Made by a program: the position numbers and the translations under genes | Notes under the pieces: model-generated | Seen by the model: only the letters and a program-made list of their open reading frames with translations | Database searches by the model: none | What the model was told of the DNA's origin: nothing | Shown: piece by piece, positions 1 to 43,688 of the stretch | How positions within the stretch are numbered: position 1 is the stretch's first letter | Layout of the letters: the number at the start of each line of letters is the position of its first letter | Origin: Candidatus Bathyarchaeota archaeon | GTDB lineage: Archaea; Thermoproteota; Bathyarchaeia; TCS64 | Assembly: GCA_963769425.1 (NCBI GenBank) | Contig: CAVYLP010000001.1 | Location: 320,001 to 384,000 of the forward strand | Direction of reading: 5' to 3' | DNA: 64,000 bases

Positions 1-678
1 GGTTTCGAGTTTAAGTTTGAGAATTTCAGAGAAGAAACACAGGCTCTACCATACATTCCACTAGAGAAGGAAATTCGATCAATTAATAGCGGGATTTGGT
101 CCGACCTATTCCTGTTTACTTCAATTGATCAAGGAGTCGGGTTTCAGATTAGCTGAGACTTTGACACTTAACACGTATCTGATATTGATTTTGAACGAAA
201 TGTAATTACTCTCAATTCACCTGCAAAGCATAGCAATCCTAGACAGTTCAGAATGTCATCAATGCTTAACGCAATGTGTTAAGGAGAACGATAGCAAGAA
301 AGGAGTTCAAGGAACGGATCTGGGATGCTAAGCCTAACTCCATCCGTTACACATTCATTGGTTAAACGTAGATACTTAGCTATTAAACTCGGAAATCCTT
401 GACTCTTGAAGTATCTCAATCAAGACCTTTAGACATTGGAAGGCAACTATGGAATATCACAGAACTAAGGACATTCTTTATACGTTAAGGAAATGCTTGG
501 ACACAAATTCAATCAAGAATACCCTAATTTATACGCATCTTGTGGGACTTCGGAAGAAGAAAATTCATACACCATTAAAGTAGCCTCAACCATCGACGAA
601 TTCACCCCGCTTCTCGAATCAGGCTTCGAGTACGTGTCCGACTTCGAGGGGAAGAAGGTGCGGAGGAAGAGGAAGTAG
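1..678 (+). pseudogene. Tyrosine recombinase/integrase, decayed, 5' end outside the window
   Basis: Segments across frames read ESGFRLAE, DIDFERNVITLNSPAKHSNPRQF, KTFRHWKAT, YHRTKDIL, MLGH and a C-terminal KVASTIDEFTPLLESGFEYVSDFEGKKVRRKRK tail typical of archaeal integrases. Multiple frameshifts and stops. Confidence 0.85.
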
Positions 679-12991: not shown

Positions 12992-13420
12992 TTGAACCAC
13001 TCTCAATGCTCAAAGCCCGCCGTCACCAGCACCCACGTGAAGGCCTACAGTAAAAGAGCCATGGACAACCGAACCGGGAAAAGCGACCCGGATGCGAGGG
13101 TGAGCGTAGAAGAGGAGGCTTCATCCTCGGCTACCGCGTCCACACGGCCCACTGCGCCGACTCCGAGCTGCCCTTGGCATTCACGGTGGCTCCATGCAAC
13201 GAGAACGACAAGGTCTACTTCGAACCGCTGTTAGAGCGGGTTCACCGCCTCGGAGTCAAGTTCAGATCCGTTCTGGCGGATGCGCAGTATAGATCGGTGG
13301 TACGTGACGCGGCTGAGTGGCTCGAGGCTGAGCCGATCATCCCGGCTAAGAGGGACTCCCGGGTTGATGCGGTACTGTGTGTTGGCCGGGACTTCGTTGC
13401 AAGAGGTGCTAAGCAGCCAG
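12992..13420 (+). mobile_element. IS5/IS4-like DDE transposase fragment (pseudogene)
   Basis: STHVKAYS..SDPDAR, GFILGYRVH, LAFTVAPCNEND and VLADAQY across frameshifts. Truncated at a CAGACAGACAAACGCGCGCG junction. Confidence 0.8.
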
Positions 13421-13528
13421 ACAGACAAACGCGCGCGTATAAATTATTAATTAAGGAATATTTTACATTATTTAATTCTATACGAGAAAGGTATAAATGC
13501 TCAATATAATACCGCAAATGAGTTCAGA

Positions 13529-14749
13529 TTGGCGCAGATAGTCACAGCGGCTCAGAGGCGGAACTATTACTTCATCATTGGCTTAGTTGTGATGATGCAG
13601 ATCACCTCGTCGACCATCTACATGGTTCTACCACTCTTCTATGCGAGCGTAGGAGTATCGGTGGCGGAGAATGGCGTCTTAATATCGATAAGCACCTTCA
13701 TGGGGATACTGAGCGGCCTAACCGCAGGGGTTCTATCTAATAGGTACGGGAGGAAGAAGATTCTCACACTGAGCGCCATAATATACTCGGTATCCTATCT
13801 AATGCTCGAGTACATGGGCACAGATTTTGGTAGCCTGGCGCTCTCGAGGATCGTCGCCGGAATAGGATTCTACATGATGCCGGTCATGGTGACCACCATG
13901 GCGGCGGACATATTTCCGATGGGGATCCGCGGGAGGGCCATGAGTCTCTATCAGGCAACGAGCGGGGTAGGCTCGTTGATTGGGCCGCTGATCGTTCCAC
14001 TGCTAATATTTGGAACCGATTTCAGCCATTATTTCCTGTTCTCAGCCATCTCGATCATGATAAGCGGCGTCTTTATGGCCTTCATCATCAAGGAGACGCT
14101 GCCCTCGGAGCTCAAGTCCAGTGTAAACGAGTCTATCCGCAAGAAGCTGAACGTTCGGGGATTCATCACCTCTCTTAGGGGCCTCGGCGTGGTCGTTGGG
14201 ATATTCCTCGGCGCAGTCATCTTCTATAGGACAGCGTACACGATGATCGATCCGTTCCTGAGCCTCTACCTGACAGAGGTGCTCAAACTTAACCTCGACT
14301 CAGTGAGCGCTATATACGCTTCCAGAGCTATATGCTACATCGCGTTCTCCTTCGTTGGTGGCTATCTCATCGATAGGTTCAGCAAGAAGACTGTGCTTCT
14401 GATGGGCCTCGCCATGACCACGATAACCGTCATTAGCTACCCCTTCACCCTGACGTTTCCGCTGATGTTGGTCTTGAGGGCGTGGGACGCCGCTTCTACC
14501 GCCATCTTGATCACGGGGATCTACACGTCGCTGGCCGATTTACTTACGGTGGAGAAACGTGGCCTGGGTATGGGGATCTACTCGGCGACGGCGCAACAGA
14601 GTTCGACTGTTGGCTCCATATTCAGCGGTTTCCTGATTGGGGTTTATGGATTCAACTTTGTTTTCGTAACGGCTGGCATAGCATGCGCCTTATCTTTCCT
14701 GATCTTCTGGAGGTTTGTGCCGGGGGGGAAGAAAGTGGATAAATCGTGA
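13529..14749 (+). CDS. MFS transporter
   Basis: About 12 TM helices; motif A variants GVLSNRYGRK and GYLIDRFSKK. Confidence 0.9.
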   Translation: MAQIVTAAQRRNYYFIIGLVVMMQITSSTIYMVLPLFYASVGVSVAENGVLISISTFMGILSGLTAGVLSNRYGRKKILTLSAIIYSVSYLMLEYMGTDFGSLALSRIVAGIGFYMMPVMVTTMAADIFPMGIRGRAMSLYQATSGVGSLIGPLIVPLLIFGTDFSHYFLFSAISIMISGVFMAFIIKETLPSELKSSVNESIRKKLNVRGFITSLRGLGVVVGIFLGAVIFYRTAYTMIDPFLSLYLTEVLKLNLDSVSAIYASRAICYIAFSFVGGYLIDRFSKKTVLLMGLAMTTITVISYPFTLTFPLMLVLRAWDAASTAILITGIYTSLADLLTVEKRGLGMGIYSATAQQSSTVGSIFSGFLIGVYGFNFVFVTAGIACALSFLIFWRFVPGGKKVDKS

Positions 14750-15154
14750 AAATAGGATGACTTCGTGCATATCTTCAATCATCCCATAACCGAGTCCCGA
14801 ACGGTGTGGCATCGTCTATGTTGCGCGTAAATCACGTGGTGGCAACATCTCAGACGAGGTCATTCATAAGTTGTTCTCCGCGCGTGCAATGAGTATTATA
14901 CAGTGGAAAATGCGCACGCAAGCATGAGAAATCTCGGCAGCGGAAAGCAATAATTACCAACATATATATTTCTTAATAAACCTCTGAAATGATGATTTTC
15001 ATGGCTCCAAACCTTAAGAATAAAATGTTCCTAGATGGCGAGTAGGTTGACTGATGAGGCGCGCGCGGGCCATAGCCTTATCCCCCCAAACCCAAACCCC
15101 TTTTTTTTTGTGTTTTTCTTAAACCAGCGATTAGTTGATTATCAGCATGTGCAC

Positions 15155-15174
15155 GGTGGAAGTGAGGATAAGAC
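15155..15174. repeat. 20-bp direct repeat GGTGGAAGTGAGGATAAGAC, copy 1
   Basis: Exact match to 15982-16001. Confidence 0.9.
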
Positions 15175-15254
15175 ATCCGCCAGACAAATACTTTTACATT
15201 AGATGAGGCTAATGCCAAAGAAGCTTTGGAATATATTTCGAGTATTTTATGCTA

Positions 15255-15923
15255 TTAGGCTAATCCAAGTACTCTCCCAGTTAGCTCAGTCCAGTCCTTA
15301 TCGACGGCCTCCCGAATGAGAGACTTAAGACCCGAAAATACCTGAGGAGGCATCAGATTCATCCATCCCTTAGTTAGGATAACTTGGTCATCCTGCTTCA
15401 GCAGAGGGAAAAGCCACCTCACCAAGAGGGGAGTCTTTTCCTGAGGCACACTCCTCGCCATGACCCCAACAATGGACACTTGTTCATCCAACCCCGTATT
15501 CTCTCGGAGAGTCGGGTACAGATAGGTGTCCTCCTTGTAGAGGTGAATCCTAAGATGTGACCTCAAGACAGCCGTCGCCCTGGCAACCACAAGGGGATCA
15601 GTTGCAGCACTCATCACACCTAGCCCAGCGACCATATCATCCAGTTCACGATGATCAGTGACATATGTCTTAGCTAGGAGCGGCGCCACCTTATCGACCG
15701 CCGGGAAGACTGCCTCCTCCTCACCCTTTGCATGGTAATTCAAAATCTCTCCAGTGACCTTCATTCGGTTAAGAATAGGAGTAAAATCTCCGCGGGTCCT
15801 TACCGTTTTTAAGGTATCCTCATCTATCTCCAGCAAGTCCCTGCGAAATGCGTTGTGAAAGCAGCGTACTACGTCAATTGGTCCGAAGTCCGTCCATTTG
15901 TTCACATCTGTGCCCATGTTCAT
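15255..15923 (-). CDS. Hemerythrin/HHE domain protein
   Basis: HNAFRRDL, HAKGEEE, DHRELD, HLYKED. Confidence 0.85.
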   Translation of the reverse strand: MNMGTDVNKWTDFGPIDVVRCFHNAFRRDLLEIDEDTLKTVRTRGDFTPILNRMKVTGEILNYHAKGEEEAVFPAVDKVAPLLAKTYVTDHRELDDMVAGLGVMSAATDPLVVARATAVLRSHLRIHLYKEDTYLYPTLRENTGLDEQVSIVGVMARSVPQEKTPLLVRWLFPLLKQDDQVILTKGWMNLMPPQVFSGLKSLIREAVDKDWTELTGRVLGLA

Positions 15924-15981
15924 GTCGATTATCTTCTCTTAATCCCTTAAATTAAATCTGTGTGAATTAAAACTAGCATCA

Positions 15982-16022
15982 GGTGGAAGTGAGGATAAGA
16001 CTATGGTTATCACCCAAACCCC
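15982..16022. repeat. Dyad site containing copy 2 of the 20-bp repeat (GGTGGAAGTGAGGATAAGACTATGGTTATCACCCAAACCCC)
   Basis: Exact 20-mer match to 15155-15174, GATAA/TTATC dyad, and 13/14 inverted match to 15070-15083. Confidence 0.8.
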
Positions 16023-16172
16023 AGTTTTCTATCCTTCATACCTGTCTAACAATCTCCCTTCTACTCTCACATACTCTTACTCTCTCTCTGGGTCAGACAG
16101 ACAAACAGACAGGGAAACGAACAGGCAAACAAATAAGAAGTATTAAAAGAGTTAAAAAAATATTTTATTTCG

Positions 16173-17033
16173 ATGTCTGAGATTAAAGTCAATTATATTC
16201 GTTTATCTTTGTTCAGAAATATCTCTTTATTAATCGTCCTATTTGGGTGGAGCATATATAATATAATGGGTGGAATCTTTAATTCAATTTATTTTTATCA
16301 ATATTTTACACAAGGTTTTTTATACTATGAACTATTAGAGAGCCTAATTTCCTCCTTTTCAGGAATACTATTATTATTCCTACTCATTGATATTTTACGT
16401 TCGAAAGAAATTACTCAACGAAATAGACTTGAGATAGTAAGCTTGTTTTTACTTCAGATAATATATCAAATAGCAAGACCCGTCTCTATGTTATACTTTA
16501 ATTTATCATCTATAAGTTTTCAACCACTTGACATTTCTAATTATACTCTATCTATATCTATAGCTATATTTAGTATTATTTTATATATTTATATAATCAG
16601 GAATATTTCCTATGGGTTAAATTTAATTAATGAAAATATACTCATATTAATTTTCTTTATATTTACAAGTTTTTCAATATATCAATTGTTGTATTATATT
16701 AATTATTTTGAGGGTCACTTATTCTATTTTTTCCAAATTAGTTCATTTGAATTAATATATTTGGTGGCTACATTTTTTTCCCTTAAGTTGTATCAAAAAT
16801 TTAGAAAAAATGATCTATCAGACCTTGTTATGCCTATCTATCTCAGAATCGCCCTTTTTGAGTTCGGATTTATGGGTCTTGCAAGTGTATACTTTTTACT
16901 CATTAGTAATGGTCGCATTTTGTTATATGGAGGGGTGTTAATTGGTGAGATGCCCAATATCTGGAGTTTTGTATATTACATTGGTTTTATGGCATTATCT
17001 TTCTTACCCCTAAAGATTATCTTCGATAAATAA
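16173..17033 (+). CDS. Hypothetical polytopic membrane protein, very AT-rich
   Basis: 286-aa ORF with about 8 hydrophobic segments, rich in I/L/F/Y. Confidence 0.6.
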   Translation: MSEIKVNYIRLSLFRNISLLIVLFGWSIYNIMGGIFNSIYFYQYFTQGFLYYELLESLISSFSGILLLFLLIDILRSKEITQRNRLEIVSLFLLQIIYQIARPVSMLYFNLSSISFQPLDISNYTLSISIAIFSIILYIYIIRNISYGLNLINENILILIFFIFTSFSIYQLLYYINYFEGHLFYFFQISSFELIYLVATFFSLKLYQKFRKNDLSDLVMPIYLRIALFEFGFMGLASVYFLLISNGRILLYGGVLIGEMPNIWSFVYYIGFMALSFLPLKIIFDK

Positions 17034-17109
17034 AACTCCAAAGAGTTAATCAATCAAACTGCGCAATGTCCGGGCTGGGTAGAACGGTATTATGCGTGCG
17101 CACATTATT

Positions 17110-17223
17110 GTTAAGATTAATGACTCTAGGATCCCAATTTTTAGTCTCACCCCTAAGATACTTAGCGAATAATAGAGACTCTTCATTTATCAGCGTCTCT
17201 TGGGTCTGGTGCTCCCCGTTCCT
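17110..17223 (-). pseudogene. cas1: Probable C-terminal fragment of an archaeal solo (non-CRISPR) Cas1
   Basis: RNGEHQTQETLINEESLLFAKYLRGETKNWDPRV resembles the recalled Bathyarchaeia-type Cas1 tail QT.ETLINEEALLLAKYLR.E...W.PR. Recognised from memory, not searched. Confidence 0.6.
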
Positions 17224-17325
17224 GTTATCTAGACAAAGCGCAGGAATGACGCAACAGGTTAACCAAAAATTAACGTCAGAGTGCTTAAATGAGGTTGGAA
17301 GTATTCGACGCGCACGCAAACGCAC

Positions 17326-17952
17326 TCAGACATTTCCCCACTTATTGTAGTGTAGTTTATCCTTGAGCGTAACGGTCTTCTGCCTAACAGAATAGTCCAT
17401 GGGGTAGCCAATCGGAATCGCCGCTGCCACCTCATAACCATCAGGCACGCCCAGAACCTTCTTGAGAACAACCGTCTCACGAGGCACACTGGTAACCCCA
17501 TATAACCCCTCCGCAGCCATCGCCAGCATGATGTTCTCTATGCACATCCAGATAGAAGCCAAATCGTTCAGGTCATACAGAATCTCGCATTCCTTCAGAG
17601 GCTTCCTCAACCTATAGCAGACGACAAGCAGCTCCGGCGAGGTCACCAGCATCTTCACCTGAACCGGCAGCGCCTTACGATACATCTCCCTCTGCAGCTC
17701 ATCCGACCAATTGTTTAACGCCTTTTCGAGCTCCATCTCGTTCGTGATGTTCTTCCCCTTCGAGACCAGCTCCGCGACCTTTACCCTCTGCTCAGGGTCT
17801 TTAACGAGGATGAACTCCCACTGCCGGAGATGGTTATTTGACGGTGCTTTTAGCCCCGCCTCTAGAACTCTACGGAGCTTCTCTTCTTCTACGGATCTTG
17901 ACTGAAACTCCCTCACGCTTCTTCGATTGTTGACCGCTTCGTAAAACTCCAA
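17326..17952 (-). CDS. Nitroreductase family protein
   Basis: RRSVREF, APSNNHLRQWEF, IENIMLA..AEGL, IPIGYP. Confidence 0.9.
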   Translation of the reverse strand: MEFYEAVNNRRSVREFQSRSVEEEKLRRVLEAGLKAPSNNHLRQWEFILVKDPEQRVKVAELVSKGKNITNEMELEKALNNWSDELQREMYRKALPVQVKMLVTSPELLVVCYRLRKPLKECEILYDLNDLASIWMCIENIMLAMAAEGLYGVTSVPRETVVLKKVLGVPDGYEVAAAIPIGYPMDYSVRQKTVTLKDKLHYNKWGNV

Positions 17953-18192
17953 CTAAGATGCCACCTTGCTATATTCATAAGATAATGTTTGTATTAAGTT
18001 GACGAAAACGGATCCTTTTTAGTTTTGAACCTGATTTGTGGATTTGGTGTTCAAAGTGTTCTTGATGAAGATGTGGGGTGAATGAGGCATCTAATAGGAT
18101 GATCTTCTAAACAACCAAGCTCGCGATTCAGCGGATCGAAATATAAGAATAGATTTAATTCATACCCATACAATGTATAACATAGGTCAAGT

Positions 18193-18435
18193 ATGACTGA
18201 GGTTCAGGTAACCAGCAAGGGGCAGATAACCATCCCCTCGGAACTCAGACGCAAATACAACATAGAGGAAGGCGGTAGGGTCCAAGTCGTCGAGGAAGAC
18301 GGGAAGATCGTAGTCAAAAAAGCGATCAGCTTCTACGACCTCGCCGGATCAGCTGTGGGAGAAGCCACAGTCGAGGAGCTAAAAGAGACGCTGGACGAGA
18401 TGAGAAAAGACGATGAAGAAAACCAGCGTCTATGA
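18193..18435 (+). CDS. vapB: AbrB/MazE-family antitoxin (VapB)
   Basis: VTSKGQITIPSELRRKYNIEEG; overlaps the PIN gene. Confidence 0.9.
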   Translation: MTEVQVTSKGQITIPSELRRKYNIEEGGRVQVVEEDGKIVVKKAISFYDLAGSAVGEATVEELKETLDEMRKDDEENQRL

Positions 18436-18811
18436 CACGAGATACTTCGTCGAATACTTCTACTCCGGAGACGAGGAGGCTGTAAGAGCCCTAAAAAAAG
18501 ACGCGCGAGAAACAGGTGAGAAAATCGTCTCCACGGTGACCATCCATGAATTCTATAGAATAAACCTAGGCAAAGCAGGTAGAGAAGCAGCACAACTCAG
18601 ATGTAACGCCATAAGAAACGAGTTCAAGATAATTGACCTTGACTATGAGCAAGCTCTGCTCAGCGCCCAGATAAGAAACGAGGCTCCGATCCCCTTCGCA
18701 GACAGCGTTATCGCCGCCGCGGCACTATCGAGAGGCTGCCCAGTCGTTTCAGACGACAATCACTTCAAAAAGGTACAGAGATTACAAACGCGCTGGCCCG
18801 TTCCAAGGTAA
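18413..18811 (+). CDS. vapC: PIN-domain toxin (VapC)
   Basis: YDT, TIHEF, FADSVIAA and VSDDNHF acidic quartet. Confidence 0.9.
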   Translation: MKKTSVYDTRYFVEYFYSGDEEAVRALKKDARETGEKIVSTVTIHEFYRINLGKAGREAAQLRCNAIRNEFKIIDLDYEQALLSAQIRNEAPIPFADSVIAAAALSRGCPVVSDDNHFKKVQRLQTRWPVPR

Positions 18812-18924
18812 TTGTATACGGTCGAATGGGCGCGCGCGTCTAGCGTATACGTAAAAAAAATATTTGTTTGCGGATAAGACAGAAGAATGGCTTTTGAGTG
18901 AGTTCGACTCTTTAGACCTTTAAC

Positions 18925-43358: not shown

Positions 43359-43688
43359 AATTCTTTTATTCATGTCGGAAAAGGTCTCAGATTATCATCT
43401 ACAATCTTTTTTATAGGTTGGTTCATAAGTAAAGGTCAATCCCGCCTCGGTGAATTTCTCAGCAGCAAAACTACGGCTCAAGACGACGCTGAAAATGGGG
43501 GAGGTGAAAACGAGTTGGATAAGACTACTGTAATCTGCACTAATTGTGGGAATAGGTTCGAGACAAATTCTCCCTTCCCTAAGACGACGTGCCCGGTTTG
43601 CCGCTATAAGACGAATGTCAAAAATATTGATATGAAAGCCCACTGATAGATTGCCGGGGGTCTTTTCCCCCAATTTAAATGAATGTGG

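What the first reader, a model, noticed from the sequence alone, without database searches (positions are those of the whole stretch)
15059..16100. Dyad GGATAAGAC site present as whole and half copies around a hemerythrin cassette
A full site, GGTGGAAGTGAGGATAAGACTATGGTTATCACCCAAACCCC, lies at 15982-16022. Its left 20 bp recur exactly at 15155-15174. A right-half-like CCATAGCCTTATCCCCCCAAACCC lies at 15070, directly after a (CG)n tract, and is also a 13/14 inverted repeat of 15993-16006. Degenerate copies occur at 43502-43527 (AGGTGAAAACGAGTTGGATAAGACTA) and 18872. This resembles attL/attR-type halves or terminal inverted repeats around a cargo gene of about 0.9 kb. GGATA/TATCC cores recall casposon TIRs and type I-E CRISPR repeats, which is notable with a cas1 remnant about 1.1 kb away (inference only). 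No target-site duplication was seen.
Basis: partly seen in the sequence, partly recalled or inferred. Interest (0 to 1): 0.75.

Follow-up and report, generated by a model that had tools for sequence, protein, structure and literature searches.

The report
Cassette-boundary repeat around a hemerythrin gene
The two identical 20-base sites are worn copies of a repeat known only from one group of Bathyarchaeia, where it marks the joints between single-gene units that occur in different orders in different genomes; here two copies bracket a hemerythrin gene.

Summary
The core observation holds. GGTGGAAGTGAGGATAAGAC is exact at 15155-15174 and 15982-16001, around a hemerythrin gene (15255-15923, minus strand). 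It is not a dyad, an att pair or an inverted terminal repeat. No cas1 lies nearby; the broken gene is a DDE transposase.

The 20-mer is the invariant core of a repeat found in one genus. Copy number is 0-121 per genome: 14 in this genome, and none in the 43 genomes searched outside the genus. Named records with an exact match are all Bathyarchaeia.

Read on the other strand, the repeat is the "head" that sits about 20 nt before the start codon of amplified DUF4760 membrane-protein genes (up to 92 hits per genome). Heads stand in co-oriented arrays (158 same, 6 opposite) inside integrase islands next to tRNA genes.

Head-to-head units assort singly: in 11 of 11 homologous pairs, homology stops at the heads. 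The hemerythrin unit itself recurs in a metagenome contig at 87% identity, with homology starting and ending at the two head cores and different neighbours.

This genome has no intact DUF4760 gene, only one remnant, so its heads look like relics.

Best reading: recombination between heads, homologous or site-specific, shuffles the cassettes. No recombination event was observed directly.

The parts
15978..16006 (-). Head copy H1. It lies 58 nt 5' of the hemerythrin start codon, in the same orientation as the gene.
   Evidence: Exact 20-mer. nhmmer E=2e-10. Homology to metagenome locus L179 begins at 16004, at the edge of this core.
16007..16022 (-). Outer flank of H1, of the (CCCAAA)n / (GGGTTT)n type. 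This is one of several alternative left flanks of heads.
Evidence: Similar flanks (ggtttgggtttggggCCATA + core) occur at several other heads.
15947..15957 (-). AT-rich TATA-like box of the hemerythrin gene itself, at -34..-24 from the ATG, between H1 and the gene.
   Evidence: Sequence. Its position equals the genome-wide AT peak at -36..-26 in 607 upstream regions. The stretch is conserved in L179 and L180. That it acts as a promoter is inferred.
15255..15923 (-). Hemerythrin-domain gene (222 aa), the cargo of the unit.
   Evidence: Pfam PF01814, E=3e-11. Relatives at 56-86% aa identity in 7 metagenome loci.
15191..15233 (+). Motif B, a second repeat that accompanies heads. It has imperfect inverted arms (CCAAAG 15215-15220 / CTTTGG 15224-15229, inside longer 11-nt arms in the family consensus) around a short spacer. 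It is followed by a T-rich run on the plus strand.
   Evidence: nhmmer E=1.5e-9; 8 strong copies in this genome, all inside head clusters and co-oriented with them. As ssDNA, 15150-15250 folds better than shuffles (z=-2.4). B plus the hemerythrin 3' end are conserved together in G012:C13, L179 and L180.
15155..15174 (-). Head copy H2 (core only). It lies 80 nt 3' of the hemerythrin stop and has no gene after it.
   Evidence: Exact 20-mer. Homology to L179 ends exactly at 15155.
15105..15154 (-). Sequence following H2. It replaces the usual leader of DUF4760 genes. Together with H2 (15105-15174) it is 96% identical to C1:94567-94636 of the same genome.
   Evidence: The twin copy lies 55 nt inside a partial tRNA-Pro 3' copy that ends a decayed integrase element.
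15059..15099 (+). Module D: a (CG)n tract, then the first 14 bases of a head in the opposite orientation (CCATAGCCTTATCC), then (CCCAAA)n.
   Evidence: Recurs at 93-97% identity in G016, G011 and G012 loci. In L084 the same module is flanked by (GGGTTT)n and folds as a strong hairpin (z=-3.8). Its function is unknown.

Best explanation
The 20-mer is the invariant core of a genus-specific repeat that I call a 'head'.

Anatomy (shown). There a head reads: a short left junction (mostly CTCAATA, sometimes CCATA); the core GYCTTATCCTCACTTCCACC; TGAYWCTAAYC; a Shine-Dalgarno-like AGTGA (AGGTGA in a variant form of the head); and, 4-8 nt on, ATGGTTGA. That ATG is the start codon of a DUF4760 membrane-protein gene.

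Distribution (shown). These genes are amplified to dozens of copies in some species. They stand with unrelated small genes in co-oriented arrays inside integrase-bearing islands next to tRNA genes. A stretch from one head to the next behaves as a cassette: the same unit is found in other arrays and other species with different neighbours, and the homology stops at the heads.

This window (shown). In this genome the DUF4760 genes are gone. One 55-aa remnant is left, and 14-16 heads survive. Two of them bracket a hemerythrin gene that has its own TATA-like box. The 15155/15982 pair therefore marks the two joints of a hemerythrin cassette in a decayed array.

Mechanism (inferred). Heads are kept uniform because they carry the expression signals of the DUF4760 family. 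Being near-identical and co-oriented, they are also the places where recombination deletes, inserts and reshuffles units. I think homologous recombination or unequal crossing-over is the more likely route. A dedicated recombinase is the main rival.
For: Distribution:
- 14 copies with up to 3 mismatches in this genome; reversed-pattern control 0.
- Copies with up to 2 mismatches in 12 of 17 other genomes of the genus, 1-121 per genome; 0 of 43 genomes searched outside the genus.
- All 77 named stretches with an exact match are titled Bathyarchaeia or Bathyarchaeota MAGs.

Anatomy:
- 69 aligned copies show 1.4-2.0 bits per position over the core, dropping to about 0 within 6 nt on one side.
- ORFs starting about 20 nt after heads begin MVD/MVE, and the two scanned belong to Pfam DUF4760 (E=1e-10 and 5e-9).
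- DUF4760 genes of G001 and G010 carry a variant head with AGGTGA 7-8 nt before the ATG.

Arrays:
- Adjacent heads within 5 kb: 158 in the same orientation, 6 opposite.
- 153 distinct head-to-head segments, median 680 nt.
- Of 215 distinct heads in relatives, 75 are followed by a DUF4760-like ORF, 34 by another ORF of 80 aa or more, and 106 by none. Unrelated genes that lie in the arrays include a universal stress protein, a nitroreductase and a PLP decarboxylase.

Independent assortment:
- In 11 of the 11 best homologous segment pairs I examined (84-96% identity, 2-kb flanks included), homology is confined to one unit plus at most 48 nt.
- Window against L179: 87% identity from 16004 to 15241, then 15241-15155 matches L179 5934-6023. 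In L179 an alpha/beta-hydrolase gene sits in between, and the neighbours on both sides differ.
- L180 also has head, hemerythrin, motif B, head.

Relic state here:
- DUF4760 family search: 0 hits in this genome against 92 in G012.
- One N-terminal remnant at C1:7321-7485, directly after a degenerate head.
- Heads here carry 0-3 mismatches and have lost the ATGGTTGA box in 14 of 15.

Island context:
- tRNA genes next to integrases beside arrays.
- Integrase pseudogene pieces at window 77-544 and beside tRNA-Pro on C1.
Against: - No recombination event was seen directly. No empty-site allele turned up in 17 relatives.
- The 'joints' in public runs are short matches to B-A composites of other loci (sides of 23-27 nt).
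- Heterologous units share only about 22-33 nt at their heads. That is short for homologous recombination.
- The core is better conserved than the coding sequence behind it, and half of the heads have no gene behind them. A mere leader would not be expected to show this.
- The core contains no AT-rich box like the genome's usual one, so its role in expression is not shown.
- The integrase-iteron platform in front of arrays fits a dedicated recombinase better.
- Some hemerythrin homologues have no heads nearby (L182; G016:C13).
Confidence: 0.55

Rival explanations
1. The heads, perhaps together with motif B, are sites of a dedicated site-specific recombination system that works like an integron without hairpin attC sites. 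A zinc-ribbon tyrosine recombinase with an iteron-bearing platform captures circular single-gene units at the first head and excises them between heads. The copies in the window are then disused sites.
For: - In G002:C34 an intact 441-aa recombinase (PF00589 E=4e-19, plus an N-terminal zinc ribbon) is followed by about 440 nt holding four GATACTCTTAAACA iterons, and then by a 15-kb array that runs away from it.
- A genome-wide scan of 5 genomes finds iteron clusters at only 4 places, all directly in front of arrays.
- Three G012 platforms are alike for about 500 nt up to and including the head core, then continue into different first cassettes.
- Pieces of the same recombinase family lie beside arrays in G012:C69 and G012:C44, 3-7 kb from heads on G016:C8, and at window 77-544.
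- The part of the head after the core (TGATACT..) resembles the iteron.
- Motif B has 11-nt imperfect inverted arms and a spacer of about 5 nt. This is the architecture Cortez et al. used to search for tyrosine-recombinase sites (PMC2958812, passages read).
- The head sequence is uniform within a genome but differs between species groups, as with chromosomal integron attC sites.
Against: - The core has no dyad symmetry.
- As single-stranded DNA it folds no better than shuffles (z from -1.2 to +1.4, ten folds of five heads).
- No integron integrase reaches the family cut-off (TIGR02249: 0 of 5 genomes).
- Three other integrases next to arrays are unrelated to each other (23% identity).
- The zinc-ribbon family also sits beside tRNA genes like an ordinary island integrase, and it occurs in G006, which has neither heads nor DUF4760.
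- Motif B accompanies only a minority of heads.
Confidence: 0.27
2. The head is purely a regulatory element: a promoter and operator, or an untranslated leader bound by a regulator or an RNA, shared by the DUF4760 family and co-opted by other genes. Its position at unit boundaries is then a by-product of tandem gene duplication. The copy at 15982 would help express hemerythrin.
For: - Fixed distance to the start codon, and a Shine-Dalgarno-like box inside the head.
- The TTATCC of the core lies about 37 nt before the ATG. That would suit a TATA box with a short leader (reasoned).
- H1 lies in the right orientation 58 nt before the hemerythrin gene, also in L179 and L180.
Against: - 106 of 215 heads in relatives and 11 of 15 here have no ORF of 80 aa or more behind them.
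- H2 points into a gene-free stretch and then a convergent gene.
- Hemerythrin has its own AT-rich box at the usual distance.
- Duplication alone does not explain single units recurring among unrelated neighbours in other species.
Confidence: 0.1
3. The repeat is a small non-autonomous mobile element (MITE- or REP-like) that inserts by itself into intergenic DNA.
For: All copies I mapped are intergenic. Copy number is very uneven between species. Boundaries are sharp.
Against: There are no terminal inverted repeats, no target-site duplication and no hairpin. Orientation in clusters is almost uniform (158:6). The repeat is coupled to a start codon.
Confidence: 0.05
4. One reading: halves of an att site, or terminal inverted repeats of a casposon-like element tied to cas1.
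For: Direct repeats around a cargo gene. An inverted partial copy at 15070.
Against: No Cas1 in the window. The nearby broken gene is a DDE transposase. There are 14 copies in this genome and hundreds in the genus. No tRNA in the window. No repeat array beside the genome's cas1.
Confidence: 0.01

Closest known systems
Chromosomal integron cassette arrays and CALINs (clusters of attC sites lacking an integrase), also reported in Archaea (Ghaly et al. 2022, PMC9668308; passages read)
   Same: - Co-oriented repeats less than 4 kb apart separate mostly single small genes of mixed function.
[quoted passage not shown]
- Units recur with other neighbours.
- Most arrays have no adjacent integrase.
- Some arrays start beside a tyrosine recombinase and a non-coding platform.
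   Different: - The repeat is a linear sequence motif without the attC hairpin.
- No IntI-type integrase was found.
- The repeat is fused to the start codon of one amplified gene family.
- Many cassette genes lie on the other strand.
Multigene surface-protein loci of Mycoplasma (vsp/vpma type), with a highly conserved 5' region on each gene and an adjacent Xer-like recombinase. Recalled from memory; no paper was read here.
   Same: A gene family whose members share a near-identical upstream region and N-terminal membrane segment while the rest diverges. A tyrosine recombinase lies next to the locus. Recombination occurs within the conserved 5' region.
   Different: There the sites are inverted and the outcome is phase variation by inversion. 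Here the heads are direct repeats (158:6), unrelated genes are interspersed, and the predicted DUF4760 domain follows a positively charged stretch after the membrane helix.
pdif modules of Acinetobacter plasmids: gene modules bounded by 28-bp XerC/D sites. Recalled from memory; not read here.
   Same: Discrete gene modules bounded by short conserved sites move between contexts without a transposase of their own.
   Different: pdif sites are 11-6-11 inverted-arm sites and flank modules in inverted orientation. The head core has no such symmetry; only motif B does.
tRNA-targeting integrative elements of archaea (review PMC8371274; passages read)
   Same: The arrays lie in islands that begin with a tRNA gene and an integrase. 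One decayed example in this genome (tRNA-Pro, C1:92467-94695) holds a head near its far end.
   Different: The att repeats of such elements are copies of the tRNA 3' part and occur twice per element. The head is not tRNA-like and occurs many times.
Casposons
   Same: Nothing beyond short repeats flanking cargo.
   Different: No Cas1, no terminal inverted repeats, no target-site duplication.

Membership tests
Integron attC array / CALIN | Two or more sites less than 4 kb apart in one orientation, between short ORFs | tested here: met
   158 of 164 adjacent pairs within 5 kb are co-oriented. Median unit is 680 nt.
Integron attC array / CALIN | The site folds as an imperfect single-strand hairpin (paired R''/L'' with L'/R', extrahelical bases) | tested here: not met
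   Ten ssDNA folds of five heads, both strands: z from -1.2 to +1.4. None is clearly better than shuffles.
Integron attC array / CALIN | An IntI-type integrase in the genome | tested here: not met
   TIGR02249: best 58.8 bits against a cut-off of 265; over the cut-off in 0 of 5 genomes. These are incomplete MAGs, so absence is not proven.
Integron attC array / CALIN | Conserved RYYYAAC ... GTTRRRY end boxes | tested here: inconclusive
   The head ends CTCAATA ... GGTTGAY resemble these boxes but miss a defining base on each side (read). The consensus of the boxes is recalled.
Casposon | Cas1-family casposase inside the element | tested here: not met
   PF01867 at E<=0.1 hits only C4:211375-212170 and C6:728135, and nothing in the window.
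Casposon | Terminal inverted repeats and a target-site duplication | tested here: not met
   The two full copies are direct repeats. The flanks differ.
CRISPR repeat | Regular short spacing of repeats in an array | tested here: not met
   Spacing is 0.15-4.2 kb. No direct-repeat array in the 16 kb around the genome's cas1.
att sites of a tRNA-integrating element | Two direct repeats that copy the 3' part of a tRNA gene, with an integrase inside | tested here: not met
   No tRNA in the window. The 20-mer has many copies. Such an element exists elsewhere in this genome.
MITE / REP-like element | Terminal inverted repeats or a palindrome, and random orientation | tested here: not met
Leader of the DUF4760 gene family (Pfam PF15956) | Lies at a fixed short distance 5' of a DUF4760 ORF | tested here: inconclusive
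   Met for 75 of 215 heads in relatives and for the variant heads. Not met for either copy in the window, nor for any of 15 in this genome. This genome has 0 DUF4760 hits and one remnant.

The most novel reading that the evidence does not exclude
One genus of Bathyarchaeia runs a cassette-capture system that does the work of an integron with different parts. A 20-30-bp linear double-strand site (the head, with the palindromic motif B as a possible crossover site) takes the place of the folded attC. A zinc-ribbon tyrosine recombinase with an iteron platform takes the place of IntI/attI. The site also supplies the ribosome-binding region and start codon to what is inserted. The system has amplified one membrane-protein family to about 90 copies and carries genes such as hemerythrin between species.
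Probability: 0.25. Interest if true: 0.85.

Novelty: new variant of a known kind. Interest (0 to 1): 0.6.

Why it matters
Integron-type cassette arrays are the best-known way for prokaryotes to collect and reshuffle single genes. In Archaea they have so far been recognised only through attC hairpins. Here, arrays with the same outward behaviour are built on a repeat that has no hairpin and would escape attC-based searches: co-oriented sites, units of about 0.7 kb, mixed cargo, and units that assort singly across species.

If a recombinase acts on these heads, this is a second, independent solution to cassette capture, found in a widespread soil and peat archaeal group that cannot yet be cultured.

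If not, it is a clear natural case of a gene family's leader acting as a recombination hot-spot that drags unrelated genes along.

Either way it explains why gene order in these genomes is so poorly conserved. It also gives a simple sequence marker for their variable islands.

Tried and rejected
Hypotheses tested and rejected:
- attC-like hairpin: rejected by folding.
- Integron integrase: none over the cut-off.
- Cas1/casposon: rejected.
- CRISPR array beside the genome's cas1: none.
- tRNA-derived att site in the window: none.
- Known RNA family: none at gathering score in the window; none at E<=1 in 14800-16250; only two chance-level miRNA matches in the platform L103:1800-2720.
- Defence-system models: no PADLOC hit for 6 proteins, comprising 2 DUF4760, 2 integrases, 1 neighbour and hemerythrin.

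Searches that did not settle the question:
- One cognate integrase beside all arrays: the three first seen are unrelated.
- Empty-site allele or synteny. Window 13500-18900 was searched in all 18 genomes of the genus. Only the nitroreductase gene recurs (80-95%), each time in another context. The homologue of the 286-aa membrane gene in G002:C36 has a different upstream region without a head.
- Public runs. Only 4 runs hold small shares (0.06-0.09) of window 13600-17300. Laid, they show contigs with the hemerythrin gene at about 98% identity in two peat runs. The four 'joints' from 15181-15233 to 15978-15982 have sides of only 23-27 nt and, in one, 18 foreign letters. I read them as B-A composites of other loci, not as excision products. 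Parts without cover are not evidence.
- Hemerythrin homologues without heads: G016:C13 and L182. Of the 7 metagenome loci I mapped 4; L183-L185 (short contigs, 56-58% identity) were not mapped.
- Covariation in a putative closing stem of the head: looked at by eye, no sign, not tested formally.

Literature:
- 'DUF4760' gives 1 paper (listing seen only).
- 'Bathyarchae' + 'integron' gives 8 papers, none on this by title or abstract.
- 'Bathyarchae' + 'intergenic repeat' gives 0.
- The archaeal dif sequence could not be compared with motif B. The paper gives it only in a figure (PMC2958812, passages read).
- Supplements are closed. Data S1/S3 of Ghaly et al. might show whether genomes of this genus were counted among their attC clusters.

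Protein-homologue, structure, atlas and complex tools were not used.
Full report
1. The observation

GGTGGAAGTGAGGATAAGAC is exact at 15155-15174 and 15982-16001, both on the plus strand and 827 nt apart. With up to three mismatches these are the only two matches in 64 kb, against 0.01 expected.

Between them lies one ORF, 15255-15923 on the minus strand. It is a hemerythrin-domain protein (PF01814, E=3e-11).

CCATAGCCTTATCC at 15070 is a 13/14 reverse complement of 15993-16006. By itself it is within chance, but the 41 nt around it recur in other genomes.

- The GATAA..TTATC dyad is private to one copy.
- The copies at 43502 and 18872 are not supported. The first is a Shine-Dalgarno sequence plus the start of a small zinc-ribbon ORF.
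- There is no cas1 in the window. The broken gene 1.5 kb away is a DDE transposase.

2. A repeat family confined to one genus

The window's genome holds 14 copies with up to three mismatches, against 0 for the reversed control. nhmmer finds the same 14 at E<=4e-7 and three weaker ones. They are intergenic wherever I mapped them. They are clustered, and co-oriented within each cluster.

Among 60 other genomes, 12 of 17 in the same genus have copies with up to two mismatches, from 1 to 121 per genome. None of the 43 outside the genus has any. An exact scan of one genome per prokaryote species returned 77 stretches. All are titled Bathyarchaeia or Bathyarchaeota MAGs.

3. What the repeat is

A gene ends. 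About 10-30 nt later comes CTCAATA (less often CCATA). Then the core GYCTTATCCTCACTTCCACC, then TGAYWCTAAYC, then CAGTGA, a few bases, and ATGGTTGA. I call this a head.

The ORFs that start at that ATG are 170-200 aa long, with an N-terminal membrane helix. They are Pfam DUF4760.

In 69 aligned copies the core carries 1.4-2.0 bits per position. Information falls to zero within 6 nt on the outer side.

In G001 and G010, which scored 0 and 1 for the 20-mer, DUF4760 genes carry a diverged head. It keeps TTATCCTCA.TTC and has a canonical AGGTGA 7-8 nt before the ATG. So the head is old, tied to this gene family, uniform within a genome and different between species groups.

As single-stranded DNA, heads fold no better than shuffled sequence. 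No Rfam family matches.

4. Arrays of units

Adjacent heads within 5 kb are co-oriented in 158 of 164 cases. There are 153 distinct head-to-head segments, with a median of 680 nt.

Of 215 distinct heads in relatives:
- 75 are followed by a DUF4760-like ORF;
- 34 by another ORF of at least 80 aa;
- 106 by none, often because the next gene is on the other strand.

Other genes that follow heads or lie in the arrays include alpha/beta hydrolases, a nitroreductase, a PLP decarboxylase, a universal stress protein, a weak SnoaL-like match and, by eye, flavodoxin-like, DinB-like and EthD-like proteins. A few unrelated ORFs begin with the head's own ATGGTTGA.

DUF4760 hits per genome run from 0 to 92. 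They track head counts only loosely. This genome has 0.

5. Units assort singly

I compared all head-to-head segments with each other. For the 11 best pairs from different contigs or species (84-96% identity) I aligned them with 2 kb of flank on each side. In 11 of 11 the homology covers one unit, from head to head, plus at most 48 nt. The neighbouring units are unrelated.

The window's own unit passes the same test:
- In metagenome locus L179, window 16004-15241 (head core, leader, hemerythrin gene) matches at 87% identity.
- L179 then holds an alpha/beta-hydrolase gene that the window lacks.
- After that, window 15241-15155 (motif B and the second head core) matches at 87%.
- On both outer sides the sequences differ: a transketolase gene and a nitroreductase gene in L179, a membrane-protein gene and an MFS transporter gene in the window.

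L180 has the same order: head, hemerythrin, motif B, head. L181 has a degenerate head after the gene, and L182 has none. Three further short loci were not mapped.

This is the strongest evidence that the two 20-mers are the joints of a movable unit.

6. Where arrays live

Integrases lie at the upstream end of several arrays, and tRNA genes lie beside those integrases. Examples are tRNA-Leu in L054 and L056. Three of these integrases are unrelated to each other. So arrays are cargo of ordinary tRNA-linked islands.

One family stands out. In G002:C34 a 441-aa tyrosine recombinase with an N-terminal zinc ribbon is followed by about 440 nt of non-coding DNA. That DNA holds four GATACTCTTAAACA iterons at spacings of 41, 19 and 47 nt. 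Then comes the first head of a 15-kb array.

A scan of five whole genomes finds such iteron clusters at four places only, all in front of arrays. One of them, on G012:C69, is beside a truncated copy of the same recombinase fused to another gene.

The three G012 platforms are alike for about 500 nt up to and including the head core. They then run into three different DUF4760 genes. The platform has no long ORF.

The recombinase family occurs in 11 of 18 genomes of the genus.

7. This genome holds relics

- No DUF4760 gene was found.
- tblastn with 36 family members finds a single 55-aa N-terminal remnant at C1:7321-7485, right behind a degenerate head.
- 14 of 15 heads have lost the start box, and 11 have no ORF behind them.
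- Pieces of the zinc-ribbon recombinase, with an in-frame stop, lie at window 77-544.
- Another piece lies beside tRNA-Pro at C1:92467-92543. A partial copy of that tRNA's 3' end (32 of 37 bases) lies 2.1 kb further on, with a head 55 nt inside it. That head plus 50 nt is 96% identical to window 15105-15174.

8. The locus, piece by piece (minus strand, right to left)

- 16022-16007: a (GGGTTT)-type outer flank.
- 16006-15978: head H1.
- 15957-15947: an AT-rich box, 34-24 nt before the ATG. This is where the genome's upstream regions are AT-rich in general.
- 15923-15255: hemerythrin.
- 15233-15191: motif B.
- 15174-15155: head H2.
- 15154-15105: the sequence shared with the tRNA-Pro element.
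- A run of A.
- 15099-15059: module D. It holds the first 14 bases of a head in the opposite orientation, between (CCCAAA)n and (CG)n.
- 15052-14929: a 124-nt copy (89%) of the upstream region and first codons of a gene on contig C4, cut short by a stop.

The region is a patchwork of repeat modules and gene stumps, as expected of a decayed array.

9. Mechanism

Shown:
- The repeat family, its anatomy and its link to DUF4760.
- The co-oriented arrays.
- Homology of units ending at heads.
- The island and platform context.
- The relic state in this genome.

Inferred: that recombination takes place in the heads, and by what means.

I favour homologous recombination or unequal crossing-over between heads that are kept uniform for expression of the DUF4760 family (0.55). 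DUF4760 heads share 50-100 nt including the N-terminal codons. The head contains the ribosome-binding and start region. The core shows neither the symmetry nor the fold of known recombinase sites.

Against this, heterologous units share only 22-33 nt. The core is better kept than the gene. The iteron platform with its recombinase looks like an insertion point. So a dedicated site-specific system remains a serious rival (0.27), perhaps with motif B as the crossover site.

A purely regulatory element (0.10), a MITE-like element (0.05) and the casposon idea (0.01) fit worse.

10. Comparison and novelty

The arrays behave like chromosomal integron arrays or CALINs, which are known in Archaea (PMC9668308, passages read). 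But they fail two defining tests, the attC fold and the IntI integrase, so I do not file them there.

They also recall Mycoplasma surface-gene loci and pdif modules (both recalled, not read here).

My searches found nothing on this repeat or on DUF4760 arrays in Bathyarchaeia. Supplements that might list attC clusters in this genus were closed.

I rate it a new variant of a known kind. For the window itself, the finding is two relic joints around a hemerythrin cassette.

11. Limits

- All genomes are incomplete MAGs, one per species, so copy counts are lower bounds and kin are not independent.
- My loci were chosen because they hold the repeat, except in the whole-genome scans.
- ORFs were called mechanically.
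- No expression data and no direct recombination product were available.

Noticed in passing
window 77-544: Pseudogene pieces of a zinc-ribbon tyrosine recombinase. They are 58% identical to residues 348-398 and 50% identical to residues 249-288 of the intact 441-aa protein of G002:C34, and carry an in-frame stop. A cluster of heads lies 5-7 kb upstream of the window start (C1:313137-315071).
   Followed up: partly
window 12992-13509: Fragmented DDE_Tnp_1 transposase (PF01609, E=9.8e-6 for 13174-13509).
   Followed up: partly
window 14929-15052: A 124-nt copy (89%) of the upstream region and first codons of a gene at G000:C4:139500-139622. Here the reading frame stops after 6 codons, just before the (CG)n tract. 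The C4 gene's N-terminus looks like that of an aldehyde dehydrogenase (recalled resemblance, not tested).
   Followed up: partly
window 17122-17224: Another repeat of about 100 nt, between the membrane-protein gene and the nitroreductase gene. It matches many places in this genome and in at least 6 other genomes of the genus at 73-83% identity. It was not characterised.
   Followed up: no
window 15993-16106: A CT-rich stretch ending in CAGACAGACAAAC-type repeats. It is 71% similar to G000:C4:214308-214421, where it also follows a GGGTTTGGGG-GATAAGAC-..-CCCCAAATCC palindrome.
   Followed up: partly
window 17326-17952: The nitroreductase gene recurs at 80-95% nucleotide identity in 6 other genomes of the genus. 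Each time the context differs, and homology ends about 60 nt before the start and 6 nt after the stop. In G012:C15 a head lies 86 nt before its start.
   Followed up: yes
window 18193-18811: MazE/AbrB-type antitoxin (PF04014, E=2e-13) and PIN-domain toxin (PF01850, E=4e-16), a pair with overlapping ORFs.
   Followed up: partly
G000:C1:92467-94695: A decayed integrative element. It consists of tRNA-Pro(ggg), a recombinase N-terminal remnant, two ORFs, a head, and a 32/37 copy of the tRNA 3' end.
   Followed up: partly
L082:1469-1905; L103:1985-2119; L087:1993-2073; L059:8768-9130: Clusters of the 14-nt iteron GATACTCTTAAACA at conserved spacing, in front of head arrays. In L059, L087 and L103, arrays run away from the cluster on both sides.
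   Followed up: partly
G012 (whole genome): 92 six-frame hits to DUF4760 in one 3.1-Mb genome, mostly in tandem. Members share N-terminal modules (MVDAQTIGV.., MVDLSEIQAAYYM.., MVD.SLLQSASYV..) joined to different C-terminal parts. Truncated N-terminal stubs are common.
   Followed up: partly
L084:545-605 (G012:C80): (GGGTTT)n - CCATAGCCTTATCC - (CCCAAA)n: a strong hairpin (z=-3.8) with the first 14 bases of a head in its loop. Window 15059-15099 is a one-armed version. It may mark a break point inside the head after CTTATCC, but this is unexplained.
   Followed up: partly
G000 whole genome: Runs of alternating CG (7-mers) are enriched outside long ORFs: 172 of 373 lie in the 18% of the genome not covered by mechanically called ORFs. 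Many stand next to heads and gene ends.
   Followed up: partly
G000:C4:211375-212170: A Cas1 gene split into two frames. No direct-repeat array was found within C4:204000-220000.
   Followed up: partly
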